From: Escherichia phage vB_EcoM_G29
Sequence record: MK327940.1
DNA length: 64,000 nucleotides
Reading direction: 5' to 3' (one strand)
Part shown: positions 6,699 through 7,716 of the stretch, piece after piece
How the letters are laid out: each line of letters begins with the position of its first letter
How positions within the stretch are numbered: the stretch's first letter is position 1
Notes under the pieces: model-generated
Databases searched by the model: none
What the model saw: the letters and a program-made list of their open reading frames with translations, nothing else
Told to the model about the DNA's origin: nothing
Position numbers and translations under genes: made by a program

Positions 6699-6774
6699 TG
6701 GTCGAGGCAGTAGGGATCGAACCTACGACCTAGGACTTAGAAGGTCCTTGCTCTTCCTTCTGAGCTATGCCCCG
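6699..6774 (-). tRNA. tRNA-Arg (anticodon UCU)
   Basis: Cloverleaf folded by hand; anticodon loop cuUCUaa; T-loop TTCGATC; encoded CCA. Confidence 0.85.
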
Positions 6775-6778
6775 TAAT

Positions 6779-6854
6779 TGGGGTGACCGATGGGAGTCGA
6801 ACCCATGACTACGAGAATCACAATCTCGAGTTCTACCAACTGAACTACGGCCAC
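6779..6854 (-). tRNA. tRNA-His (anticodon GUG)
   Basis: Hand fold; anticodon stem cgaga/tctcg, loop uuGUGau; discriminator C73; no encoded G-1. Confidence 0.75.
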
Positions 6855-6968
6855 ATTAATACCTACTCCAACAATCAAGATGTCTTCACACGAAATTAAG
6901 AGAAGAGTGATCAGTTCAACCCCTATAATCGCGTCAAGTAGATATTAATGTGACAGTTGTCACAAATT

Positions 6969-7043
6969 TGGCGGACGTGATAGGATTCGAACCTATAACC
7001 AATCGCTTAACAGGCGATCGCTCTGCCATTGAGCTACACATCC
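6969..7043 (-). tRNA. tRNA-Asn (anticodon GUU)
   Basis: Hand fold; anticodon stem atcgc/gcgat, loop cuGUUaa; encoded CCA. Confidence 0.8.
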
Positions 7044-7047
7044 AAAT

Positions 7048-7134
7048 TGGTGGGGAGTGGTGGAGTCGAACCACCCGAGTCGCAATGACAATGGATTTAC
7101 AGTCCACACCGCTACCTCTACGGGATAACTCCCC
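7048..7134 (-). tRNA. tRNA-Tyr (anticodon GUA), long variable arm
   Basis: Hand fold; 87 nt; anticodon loop cuGUAaa; encoded CCA. Confidence 0.75.
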
Positions 7135-7143
7135 AAATTAATT

Positions 7144-7218
7144 TGGTGGCCCTGGGTGGAATTGAACCACCATCTGGCGATTATGAGTCGCTTGCTTGAA
7201 CCTTCCAGCTACAGGGCC
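7144..7218 (-). tRNA. tRNA with CAU anticodon (elongator Met or lysidine-modified Ile)
   Basis: Hand fold; anticodon loop cuCAUaa; T-stem ggtgg/ccacc; position matches the T4 tRNA-Ile slot. Confidence 0.75.
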
Positions 7219-7219
7219 T

Positions 7220-7295
7220 TGGTGCTGATTGACGGAATCGAACCGCCGACCTTCTCATTACAAGTGAGTTGCTCTACCTACTGAGCTAAATCAGC
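7220..7295 (-). tRNA. tRNA-Thr (anticodon UGU)
   Basis: Hand fold; anticodon loop cuUGUaa; encoded CCA. Confidence 0.85.
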
Positions 7296-7300
7296 AAAAC

Positions 7301-7390
7301 TGGCGGAGGCGATAGGATTTGAACCTATGAGTCGCCGGAGCGACTGCCGGTTTTCAAGACCGGTGCATTAAACCACTCTGCCACGCCTCC
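7301..7390 (-). tRNA. tRNA-Ser (anticodon UGA), long variable arm
   Basis: Hand fold; 90 nt; anticodon stem ccggt/accgg, loop cuUGAaa. Confidence 0.85.
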
Positions 7391-7392
7391 AG

Positions 7393-7466
7393 TCTCCGTG
7401 GCAGGATTTGAACCTACGACATTCTGCTCCCAAAGCAGACGCTCTACCAAACTGAGCTACACGGAG
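7393..7466 (-). tRNA. tRNA-Pro (anticodon UGG), CCA not encoded
   Basis: Hand fold; anticodon loop uuUGGga; 3' end abuts the tRNA-Ser 5' end, as in the T4 Pro-Ser dimeric precursor. Confidence 0.85.
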
Positions 7467-7476
7467 TAAATTAAAT

Positions 7477-7550
7477 TGGAGCGGATAATGAGAATCGAAC
7501 TCACATCATCAGATTGGAAGTCTGAGGTAATACCATTATACGATATCCGC
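7477..7550 (-). tRNA. tRNA-Gly (anticodon UCC)
   Basis: Hand fold; anticodon stem tcaga/tctga, loop cuUCCaa. Confidence 0.85.
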
Positions 7551-7555
7551 AAATT

Positions 7556-7642
7556 TGGTGCGAGAAGTGGGACTCGAACCCACAAGGAAATCATTCCGCA
7601 GCATTTTAAGTGCTGTGCCTTTACCAATTTGGCCATTCTCGC
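7556..7642 (-). tRNA. tRNA-Leu (anticodon UAA), long variable arm
   Basis: Hand fold; anticodon stem cagca/tgctg, loop cuUAAaa. Confidence 0.85.
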
Positions 7643-7643
7643 G

Positions 7644-7716
7644 CTGGGAATAAAGGACTCGAACCTTTGCATCCTGGAATCAAAATCCAGTGCCTTACCA
7701 ACTTGGCTAATTCCCA
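7644..7716 (-). tRNA. tRNA-Gln (anticodon UUG), CCA not encoded
   Basis: Hand fold; anticodon stem ctgga/tccag, loop uuUUGau; one nucleotide from the tRNA-Leu 5' end (Gln-Leu dimer). Confidence 0.85.

What the first reader, a model, noticed from the sequence alone, without database searches (positions are those of the whole stretch)
6699..7716. Eleven-gene tRNA cluster, expanded relative to the canonical T4 set
Hand folding gives, in transcription order on the minus strand: Gln(UUG), Leu(UAA), Gly(UCC), Pro(UGG), Ser(UGA), Thr(UGU), a CAU-anticodon tRNA (Met or Ile), Tyr(GUA), Asn(GUU), His(GUG), Arg(UCU). As I recall, T4 encodes eight (Gln, Leu, Gly, Pro, Ser, Thr, Ile, Arg), so Tyr, Asn and His appear to be extra and are inserted between the Ile slot and Arg. 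Pro and Gln lack an encoded CCA and abut the next tRNA (Pro-Ser and Gln-Leu dimers), implying dependence on host RNase P and CCA-adding enzyme as in T4. The extra tRNAs may compensate codon-usage mismatch or counter host tRNA-depletion defences (anticodon nucleases).
Basis: partly seen in the sequence, partly recalled or inferred. Interest (0 to 1): 0.55.

Follow-up and report, generated by a model that had tools for sequence, protein, structure and literature searches.

The report
Known eleven-tRNA cluster of T-even phage
This is the ordinary tRNA operon of a T4-family phage, in an eleven-gene variant already annotated in hundreds of sequenced phages. Its one unexplained part is a histidine tRNA that lacks the usual extra 5' G and is always preceded by a conserved folded RNA.

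Summary
T4 has eight.

The window is 100% identical to Escherichia phage vB_EcoM_G4500 (Tequatrovirus), where the cluster is already annotated. 317 phage records cover at least 80% of it.

It is not T4 plus three inserted genes. T4 homology stops about 20 nt into the CAU tRNA and resumes at rnaD. T4's Ile remainder, segB and Arg are replaced by a T2-type block: an Ile2-like CAU tRNA, Tyr, Asn, a different Arg allele and an ORF. A 190-nt module (folded leader plus tRNA-His) sits between Asn and Arg.

Published work already covers T2L/T6 variation, SegB homing into the Asn gene, and rescue from Septu by T6 tRNA-Tyr, which is 86/87 identical to this one. Tyr and Asn codons are enriched about 1.4-fold in the phage. 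His codons are depleted (0.59-fold).

New in passing: this tRNA-His, like 20 other phage tRNA-His genes, has T rather than G at -1. A covarying helix, or another tRNA, abuts its 5' end. In T5 the equivalent element is the annotated stable RNA III.

Verdict: already known, low interest, with one small open question.

The parts
7643..7716 (-). tRNA-Gln(UUG). No encoded CCA; abuts tRNA-Leu. 89% identical to T4's, with all 8 differences in the anticodon arm.
7556..7642 (-). tRNA-Leu(UAA), CCA encoded; 98.9% identical to T4's
7477..7550 (-). tRNA-Gly(UCC), CCA encoded; 100% identical to T4's
7392..7466 (-). tRNA-Pro(UGG). No encoded CCA; 1 nt before tRNA-Ser by the ARAGORN calls. 85% identical to T4's.
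7301..7390 (-). tRNA-Ser(UGA). CCA is encoded here, whereas T4's gene has TAA at that place.
7220..7295 (-). tRNA-Thr(UGU); 96% identical to T4's. Absent from T2.
7144..7218 (-). CAU-anticodon tRNA of the Ile2 (lysidine) type, called Met by ARAGORN. Only 61% identical to T4 tRNA-Ile. The T4 homology breakpoint is at about 7198.
7048..7134 (-). tRNA-Tyr(GUA); 86/87 identical to T6 tRNA-Tyr
   Evidence: PMC13096335
6969..7043 (-). tRNA-Asn(GUU); identical to T2's Asn gene. The T2L Asn gene holds the preferred SegB cleavage site.
   Evidence: PMC2330249
6855..6968 (-). Structured leader RNA 5' of tRNA-His. The closing helix pairs 6936-6949 with 6855-6868 and ends at position -1 of the tRNA. It encloses two hairpins.
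6779..6854 (-). tRNA-His(GUG) with C73 and encoded CCA, but T instead of G at position -1
6699..6774 (-). tRNA-Arg(UCU), T2-type allele: 2 differences from T2's, 61% identical to T4's
6330..6680 (-). 116-aa ORF inside the operon. It corresponds by length and position to the 351-nt ORF downstream of Arg in T2 (sequences not compared). phrog_3355, unknown function.
6218..6333 (-). Homolog of T4 rnaD (species 2 stable RNA)
6074..6211 (-). Homolog of T4 rnaC (species 1 stable RNA), 137/139 identical. It contains the spurious ARAGORN 'tRNA-Lys' call at 6073-6166.
6000..6023 (-). Intrinsic terminator closing the operon (10-bp stem, 7 G-C pairs, T run), as in T4

Best explanation
This is the tRNA operon of a T-even phage (Tequatrovirus; the window equals vB_EcoM_G4500 64001-128000) in a segB-less allele.

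Gene order on the minus strand: Gln, Leu, Gly, Pro, Ser, Thr, Ile2(CAU), Tyr, Asn, structured leader, His, Arg, a 116-aa ORF, rnaD, rnaC, terminator.

Origin of the parts:
- Gln through Thr is the T4-type part.
- CAU-Tyr-Asn-Arg-ORF is the T2-type block, which occupies the place of T4's Ile 3' part, segB and Arg.
- Leader plus His is a 190-nt module shared with other Straboviridae genera.

Inferred from T4 work: the genes are co-transcribed, cut out by host RNase P and 3' nucleases, and Gln and Pro receive CCA from the host enzyme.

Function, partly shown and partly inferred: the tRNAs top up decoding of the A/U-ending codons that the AT-rich phage over-uses. This holds for the eight canonical tRNAs plus Tyr and Asn. 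They also serve as spare parts when host defences destroy specific tRNAs. That role is shown experimentally for the near-identical T6 tRNA-Tyr against Septu, and for other phages' tRNA-Thr(UGU) against P2 OLD. It is only inferred for Asn and His.

The patchwork among T4, T2, T6 and this phage comes from recombination at tRNA genes. Part of it is driven by the SegB homing endonuclease, whose preferred target is this Asn gene.
For: - Identity and annotation: 100% match to MK327945.1, with all eleven tRNAs annotated.
- tRNA calls.
- Collinearity with T4 and the breakpoints. Per-tRNA identities.
- T4, T2 and T6 maps.
- Asn identical to T2's, Arg 2 nt from T2's, Tyr 86/87 to T6's.
- rnaD, rnaC and the terminator.
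- Codon use: cognate codons of the canonical eight are 1.0-2.2-fold as codon sets, and the A-ending codons are 1.7-3.1-fold. Tyr is 1.42-fold and Asn 1.40-fold.
- Literature: SegB cleaves the T2L Asn gene and replaces the Met(CAU)-Tyr-Asn-Arg block (PMC2330249). Septu cleaves tRNA-Tyr, T6 tRNA-Tyr dosage rescues infection, and T4, which lacks Tyr, cannot escape (PMC13096335). Phage tRNA-Thr(UGU) suppresses P2 OLD, which also cuts tRNA-Asn(GUU) (PMC12445682).
- The Tyr-CAU-Thr stretch is about 90% identical to rV5-like phages, and leader plus His is 80-92% identical to Karamvirus/Jiaodavirus. Both fit modular exchange.
Against: - No expression, processing or charging data exist for this phage. 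Transcription start sites were not located, and the sigma-70 scan is at chance level.
- His codons are under-represented in the phage (0.59-fold).
- The His gene lacks the G-1 that E. coli HisRS needs for efficient charging (PMC5499578). A translational role for tRNA-His is therefore not secure.
- The anticodon loops of Tyr, Asn and His are, from my recollection of the E. coli sequences for Tyr and Asn, the same as the host's. They show no obvious escape mutations. T6 tRNA-Tyr is itself cleaved by Septu and works by dosage.
- The E. coli codon frequencies used were recalled, not computed.
Confidence: 0.88

Rival explanations
1. Codon compensation alone. The three extra tRNAs exist only to supply codons that the phage uses more than E. 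coli does.
For: UAU is 1.9-fold and AAU 2.1-fold enriched. The Tyr and Asn codon sets are 1.4-fold. The canonical eight fit this logic well.
Against: His codons are depleted (0.59-fold). T4, T2, T6 and this phage are close relatives and should have very similar codon usage (not measured here), yet they carry 8, 9, 7 and 11 tRNAs. The T6 tRNA-Tyr effect is seen specifically under Septu (PMC13096335).
Confidence: 0.15
2. Passengers of selfish DNA. The extra tRNAs are kept mainly because tRNA genes are recombination and homing-endonuclease targets, so blocks spread by gene conversion regardless of any benefit.
For: SegB targets tRNA genes and converts the T2L block at about 100% efficiency (PMC2330249). 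Relatives carry HNH or GIY-YIG genes at this locus. The breakpoints lie inside tRNA genes.
Against: All eleven are intact cloverleaves with high scores. The module is 99% or more conserved in 186 records. Differences from T4 in the Gln anticodon stem are compensatory. Direct phenotypes exist for Tyr.
Confidence: 0.15
3. tRNA-His is not a normal translational tRNA. Without G-1 it is charged poorly, and it acts as a decoy or regulator, or it depends on special 5' processing directed by the leader helix.
For: T at -1 in 21 phage tRNA-His genes, against G in E. coli and in 10 other viral contigs. Loss of G-1 lowers HisRS efficiency more than 100-fold (PMC5499578). His codons are depleted. A covarying helix abuts +1.
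Against: C73, the GUG anticodon, CCA and a canonical cloverleaf are all kept. The T5 record notes that a changed anticodon turns T5 tRNA-His into an effective amber suppressor, which implies processing and charging. High expression may offset poor charging.
Confidence: 0.25

Closest known systems
Phage T4 tRNA operon (NC_000866: Gln Leu Gly Pro Ser Thr Ile, segB, Arg, rnaD, rnaC)
   Same: Same genomic position, between the trna.2-4/ipI side and e.8. Same strand. Gln to Thr are 85-100% identical. rnaD, rnaC and the terminator are shared. Gln-Leu and Pro-Ser tandems lack CCA.
   Different: No segB. The CAU and Arg tRNAs are different alleles (61% identical). Tyr, Asn, the leader and His are added. 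An ORF sits between Arg and rnaD. Ser and the CAU tRNA have an encoded CCA here but not in T4.
Phage T2/T2L tRNA region (AP018813; PMC2330249)
   Same: segB-less allele with the order CAU, Tyr, Asn, Arg and a 351-nt ORF. Asn is identical and Arg differs at 2 nt.
   Different: T2 has an ORF (trna.1) where this phage has Thr. T2 lacks the 190-nt leader plus His module, so Asn is followed directly by Arg.
Phage T6 tRNA-rich region (MH550421; PMC13096335)
   Same: tRNA-Tyr is 86/87 identical. The cluster lies at the same locus.
   Different: T6 has segB after Tyr, lacks Pro, Ser, Asn and His, and carries the T4-type CAU tRNA.
Phage T5 RNA III plus tRNA-His (AY543070: misc_RNA 'stable RNA with unknown functions' abutting tRNA-His)
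   Same: A structured RNA of about 100 nt whose 5' and 3' ends form a 13-15 bp helix ending at -1 of tRNA-His. That tRNA has T at -1 and C73.
   Different: No detectable sequence or covariance-model similarity: model R1 finds nothing in the T5 locus at E up to 10. T5's element has three internal hairpins; the window's has two.
tRNA clusters of Karamvirus, Jiaodavirus, Winklervirus, Kanagawavirus and a 172.7-kb IMG/VR contig that looks Merlin-like
   Same: The leader plus His module is 80-92% identical, with the same helix and T at -1.
   Different: There the module follows tRNA-Gln (tRNA-Asn in Edwardsiella phage PEi26, Kanagawavirus) and sits in clusters of 9 to 16 or more tRNAs. The interior of the leader varies from an 11-13 bp plain hairpin (CIP9) to a three-hairpin junction.

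Membership tests
T-even (Tequatrovirus) tRNA operon | Located between the trna.2/3/4-ipI side and rnaD-rnaC-e.8, all on one strand | tested here: met
   Collinear BLAST with T4 on both flanks, 94.6% and 91% identical. Annotation of the identical record and of T4.
T-even (Tequatrovirus) tRNA operon | Core tRNAs Gln(UUG), Leu(UAA), Gly(UCC), Pro(UGG), Ser(UGA), Thr(UGU), Ile(CAU) and Arg(UCU) | tested here: met
   All eight anticodons are present. Six are 85-100% identical to T4's. CAU and Arg are non-orthologous alleles at 61%.
T-even (Tequatrovirus) tRNA operon | Co-transcription and processing by RNase P, with CCA addition for genes lacking CCA | not testable with these tools
   Only the gene-level signs are seen: tandem genes 0-10 nt apart, no CCA in Gln and Pro, and a single terminator after rnaC.
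tRNA (Rfam RF00005) | Score above the gathering threshold (29 bits), with a cloverleaf | tested here: met
   Ten genes score 59.9-74.1 bits. Tyr is called by ARAGORN and is 86/87 identical to T6 tRNA-Tyr.
tRNA-Ile2 (lysidine-modified CAU tRNA reading AUA) | CAU anticodon, with the body resembling bacterial tRNA-Ile2 rather than tRNA-Met | tested here: met
   The best E. coli hits are all annotated tRNA-Ile (81.6% over the full length). The hit examined has a CAT anticodon and the same GCGACTCATAATCGC core of the anticodon stem-loop. G1-C72 excludes an initiator.
tRNA-Ile2 (lysidine-modified CAU tRNA reading AUA) | Modification of C34 to lysidine by TilS, and charging by IleRS | not testable with these tools
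   C4-G69 and C5-G68 are present. I recall these as TilS determinants, which makes this a lead, not a test.
Bacterial-type tRNA-His | Genome-encoded G-1 pairing with C73 (8-bp acceptor stem) | tested here: not met
   Position -1 is T. E. coli hisR has G. The same T occurs in 20 other phage tRNA-His genes.
Bacterial-type tRNA-His | GUG anticodon, C73 discriminator and a canonical 7/5 cloverleaf | tested here: met
   An 8/4 fold is excluded because the eighth pair would be U-U.
T5 RNA III-like stable RNA | [quoted passage not shown] | tested here: met
   The window MFE has a 14-bp helix (z -3.6), and T5's has 15 bp (z -3.8). On alignment A4 the helix is 99.3% paired, with 5 pairs changed on both sides.
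T5 RNA III-like stable RNA | Sequence or profile homology to T5 RNA III | tested here: not met
   Model R1 gives no hit in the T5 locus at E up to 10. No Rfam family matches either element.
T5 RNA III-like stable RNA | Accumulates as a stable RNA in infected cells | not testable with these tools
   Known only for T5, from its GenBank annotation.
SegB homing target allele | No segB, and a tRNA-Asn gene carrying the preferred SegB site | tested here: met
   No segB between the CAU tRNA and Arg. The Asn gene is identical to T2's. Cleavage itself cannot be tested here (PMC2330249).

The most novel reading that the evidence does not exclude
The leader plus tRNA-His module represents an undescribed phage-specific way of making tRNA-His. 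The gene encodes U instead of G at -1. A conserved helix (T5 RNA III in T5, its counterpart here) ends exactly at that nucleotide. The helix would direct cleavage between -2 and -1, by RNase III or by a shifted RNase P cut. The mature tRNA would then carry a 5'-phosphorylated U-1 in place of G-1, and a stable blunt-ended by-product RNA would be released. Alternatively, the tRNA is left without any N-1 and serves as a poorly charged decoy.
Probability: 0.3. Interest if true: 0.55.

Novelty: already known. Interest (0 to 1): 0.2.

Why it matters
As a tRNA cluster it adds nothing new. It is one of several known alleles of the T-even tRNA locus. It illustrates how homing endonucleases and host tRNA-cleaving defences shuffle phage tRNA sets.

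The small point worth keeping concerns tRNA-His. Apart from some alpha-proteobacteria, every bacterial tRNA-His studied relies on an encoded G-1. A widespread family of phage tRNA-His genes in Straboviridae, Vequintavirinae, T5 and a mycobacteriophage does not encode it. Except in the mycobacteriophage, where tRNA-Glu abuts the gene, a structured RNA abuts the 5' end instead. If that pairing reflects a distinct maturation route or a non-translational role, it would be a modest but real addition to tRNA biology. It would also give a function to the 'stable RNAs of unknown function' long annotated in T5.

Tried and rejected
1. A twelfth tRNA: the ARAGORN 'tRNA-Lys(ttt)' at 6073-6166, also annotated in MK327945. 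Rejected. It lies in the rnaC homolog, is not called in T4, and its only tRNA-clan Rfam match is 16.8 bits, E 2.9.

2. A promoter in the 114-nt spacer. No minus-strand sigma-70-like site was found there, and the scan was at chance level overall. I also dropped a MotA-box reading upstream of Gln, because the -10 candidate would place the start inside the tRNA.

3. The spacer as a decayed tRNA, or as terminal inverted repeats of a mobile element. There is no Rfam hit. All 18 non-Watson-Crick cells in the helix are G-U on the tRNA-sense strand and none is A-C. This argues for RNA pairing rather than DNA repeats.

4. An 8/4 acceptor/T-stem tRNA-His as described in PMC5389517. It does not fit: the eighth pair would be U-U, and those tRNAs have A73 or U73.

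5. PARIS as a reason for carrying Asn. The paper reports only tRNA-Lys.

6. Pfam and PHROGs on the ORFs in and around the operon. They gave only unknown-function families.

7. Homology of the leader to T5 RNA III by covariance model. No hit; only the architecture is shared.

8. Literature searches for a description of G-1-less phage tRNA-His found none. The older T5 papers are not in the library.

9. E. coli codon frequencies could not be computed here. The values are recalled.
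Full report
**Observation.** These are Gln(UUG), Leu(UAA), Gly(UCC), Pro(UGG), Ser(UGA), Thr(UGU), a CAU tRNA, Tyr(GUA), Asn(GUU), His(GUG) and Arg(UCU). Rfam's tRNA model hits ten of them at 60-74 bits. For Tyr, with its long variable arm, the only listed match is to the related tRNA-Sec model. It is 86/87 identical to the experimentally studied T6 tRNA-Tyr. 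Only Gln and Pro lack an encoded CCA, and each abuts the next gene. As a control, T4 (NC_000866) gives eight tRNAs with the same tool and in its annotation.

**What the window is.** The region is 100% identical to Escherichia phage vB_EcoM_G4500 (MK327945.1, Tequatrovirus). Window position 6000 equals record position 70000. All eleven tRNAs are annotated in that record. 317 phage records cover at least 80% of the 1018-nt cluster. 186 records carry the leader plus His stretch at 99% identity or more. The cluster is therefore common and already deposited with annotation.

**Anatomy relative to T4, T2 and T6.**
- T4 homology (94.6%) runs from upstream of Gln through Thr and about 20 nt into the CAU tRNA, stopping at window 7199.
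- It resumes at 6330 with rnaD, rnaC and the terminator (91%).
- Gly, Leu, Ser, Thr, Gln and Pro are 100, 98.9, 97.8, 96.1, 89.2 and 85.3% identical to T4's. The CAU and Arg tRNAs are only 61% identical, so they are different alleles.
- T4 has the rest of Ile, segB and Arg in this interval.
- T2 (AP018813) has Gln Leu Gly Pro Ser, an ORF, CAU Tyr Asn Arg and a 351-nt ORF. Its Asn is identical to the window's and its Arg differs at two positions.
- Relative to T2, the window has Thr where T2 has the ORF. It also has a 190-nt insertion (114-nt leader plus tRNA-His) between Asn and Arg.
- T6 has Gln Leu Gly Thr CAU(T4-type) Tyr segB Arg.

The locus is thus a mosaic whose breakpoints lie in or next to tRNA genes. 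The Tyr-CAU-Thr stretch is about 90% identical to rV5-like phages. The leader plus His module is 80-92% identical to Karamvirus and Jiaodavirus phages.

**The CAU tRNA.** Its best matches in 5424 of 5426 E. coli genomes are genes annotated tRNA-Ile (81.6% over the full length). The one examined has a CAT anticodon and shares the GCGACUCAUAAUCGC core of the anticodon stem-loop. G1-C72 rules out an initiator. It is best read as an Ile2-type tRNA, lysidine-modified and reading AUA. AUA is 2.2-fold enriched in the phage. ARAGORN also calls the accepted T4 tRNA-Ile 'Met', so that label carries no weight.

**Operon limits.** Downstream of Arg lie a 116-aa ORF (6330-6680; phrog_3355, unknown function), the rnaD homolog (6218-6333), the rnaC homolog (6074-6211, 137/139 identical to T4's) and a strong terminator (6000-6023). 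The 'tRNA-Lys' that ARAGORN and the GenBank record place at 6073-6166 lies inside rnaC. It is a false call.

**Function.**
- I took 59 ORFs of the window as a proxy for phage genes. E. coli frequencies were recalled from the Kazusa table, not computed.
- The A-ending codons read by the canonical eight tRNAs are 1.7-3.1-fold enriched.
- The Tyr and Asn codon sets are 1.4-fold enriched. His codons are depleted to 0.59-fold.
- T4, T2, T6 and this phage are close relatives and should have very similar codon usage (not measured here), yet they carry 8, 9, 7 and 11 tRNAs. Codon compensation cannot be the whole story.
- SegB cleaves preferentially in the T2L Asn gene and converts the Met(CAU)-Tyr-Asn-Arg block to the T4 form with about 100% efficiency (PMC2330249).
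- Septu cleaves tRNA-Tyr in the variable loop. T6 tRNA-Tyr dosage rescues infection, and T4, which lacks Tyr, cannot escape (PMC13096335).
- Phage tRNA-Thr(UGU) suppresses P2 OLD, which also cuts tRNA-Asn(GUU) (PMC12445682).

The best-supported view is a mixed one. The tRNAs supplement codons for most of the set, and they act as spare parts against tRNA-targeting defences. The second role is shown for Tyr in T6 and only inferred for Asn and His. The repertoire is reshuffled by recombination and homing.

**The unexpected part: tRNA-His and its leader.** The His gene has a normal cloverleaf, a GUG anticodon, C73 and CCA. The base before G+1 is T. E. coli hisR has G there.
- The same T occurs in 20 other phage tRNA-His genes. 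They come from Tequatrovirus-related IMG/VR contigs, Karam-, Jiaoda-, Winkler-, Kanagawa-, Gualtar- and Chrysonvirus, a Merlin-like contig, Cronobacter phage CR9 (Vequintavirinae), a mycobacteriophage and T5.
- Ten other viral contigs have G. Two of them are genuine lytic-phage tRNA clusters (L057, L090).
- Loss of G-1 lowers charging by E. coli HisRS more than 100-fold. Apart from some alpha-proteobacteria, all bacteria studied keep G-1 (PMC5499578).

The 114 nt between Asn and His are conserved at 80-92% in other Tevenvirinae genera (Karamvirus, Jiaodavirus) and always lie directly 5' of tRNA-His.
- They fold well (z -4.4).
- A 14-bp helix is formed by positions 6936-6949 and 6855-6868. On 11 distinct sequences it is paired in 99.3% of cells, against 36-51% when the partner is slid.
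- Five pairs change on both sides, and the covariation score exceeds all 500 shuffles.
- All 18 non-Watson-Crick cells are G-U on the tRNA-sense strand and none is A-C. The pairing is therefore selected in the RNA.
- The helix ends at -1 to -3 of tRNA-His in each of the 12 leaders folded (the window's, ten others and T5's). This includes non-homologous leaders in Aeromonas and Cronobacter phages and a minimal 13-bp hairpin in CIP9.
- The interior varies from a plain loop to three hairpins.

In T5 the GenBank record annotates 'RNA III, stable RNA with unknown functions' (106 nt) directly abutting tRNA-His. That tRNA is annotated as 78 nt, beginning with the T at -1. RNA III folds with a 15-bp terminal helix ending at that T. 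The annotated RNA III ends would leave a 2-nt 3' overhang on that helix, the pattern RNase III leaves. I cannot tell whether those ends were mapped experimentally.

A covariance model of the T4-like leader finds the Providencia, Edwardsiella and Aeromonas versions. It finds CR9 only weakly (E 0.13). It finds nothing in T5, T4, T2 or T6, and only one sense-strand copy in the 64-kb window. The remaining window matches are the antisense strand of the same element (E 0.057) and a weak partial match near 54.4 kb (E 5.1). No Rfam family matches either element.

I conclude that the 'spacer' is a real structured RNA and the architectural counterpart of T5 RNA III. Its tie to a G-1-less tRNA-His is consistent across phage families. 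Whether it sets the 5' end of the tRNA, stabilises a by-product RNA or does something else is not shown.

**Verdict.** The finding is correct and ordinary. It is a known allele of the T-even tRNA locus, with published explanations for both its variability and its use. Novelty: already known. Interest is low. A modest open question remains about the tRNA-His module, for which the decisive experiment is 5'-end mapping and charging analysis in infected cells.

Noticed in passing
window 6779-6855 (minus strand): tRNA-His has T, not G, at position -1, although C73 is kept. The same holds for 20 other phage tRNA-His genes (several Straboviridae genera, Vequintavirinae, T5, a mycobacteriophage). E. 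coli hisR and 10 other viral contigs have G.
   Followed up: partly
window 6855-6968 (minus strand): The 114-nt 'spacer' between Asn and His is a conserved structured RNA. Its covarying 14-bp terminal helix ends at -1 of tRNA-His. It is the architectural counterpart of T5 'RNA III' (a stable RNA of unknown function). It has no Rfam family and is unannotated in the T4-like records examined.
   Followed up: partly
window 6073-6166 (minus strand): ARAGORN, and the GenBank record MK327945.1, call a 94-nt 'tRNA-Lys(ttt)' here. It lies inside the homolog of T4 rnaC (species 1 RNA, 6074-6211). It is not called in T4, which differs by one extra A, and Rfam does not support it.
   Followed up: yes
window 7643-7716 and 7392-7466 (minus strand): tRNA-Gln is identical to T4's except for 8 changes, all in the anticodon arm. 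Three stem pairs are swapped compensatorily, and loop positions 32 and 38 change from C to U. tRNA-Pro differs from T4's at 11 positions in the anticodon arm, variable region, T stem and acceptor 3' strand. This could reflect selection by nucleases that cut the anticodon arm, or allele exchange.
   Followed up: no
window 4786-5947 (minus strand); terminators at 6000-6023 and 5443-5466: Between rnaC and e.8 lies an insert absent from T4. It holds two tandem copies of a phrog_2280 gene. One is intact (5474-5947). The other is split into two ORFs (5184-5348 and 4786-5187). The same 24-nt terminator stem (AGCCCCGACCGAAAGGTTGGGGCT) occurs at 6000-6023, just upstream of the intact copy, and again at 5443-5466, just downstream of it. 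Their N-termini (MKSYTQF..., MKTYAEF...) resemble the start of T4 internal protein IpI, which suggests extra injected internal proteins.
   Followed up: partly
window 7044-7299: The Tyr-CAU-Thr stretch is about 90% identical to tRNA clusters of rV5-like phages of about 137 kb (nomo, isim, LL12, Phage 206). This points to exchange of tRNA modules between unrelated phage families.
   Followed up: no
window 7301-7390 and 7144-7218: tRNA-Ser and the CAU tRNA carry an encoded CCA here. T4's Ser and Ile genes do not. This phage therefore depends on the host CCA-adding enzyme for two tRNAs (Gln and Pro) rather than four (Gln, Pro, Ser and Ile).
   Followed up: yes
L141 (Mycobacterium phage Asterius) 162-235; L006 1855-2004; L005 1675-1770: A mycobacteriophage tRNA-His is 80% identical to this coliphage tRNA-His. 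In the Karamvirus cluster one long inter-tRNA spacer is an rnaC homolog. In the Klebsiella phage Roth01 cluster (L005) another is tRNA-like, with a closing helix and an NCCA tail. Unannotated stable RNAs appear common in these clusters.
   Followed up: no
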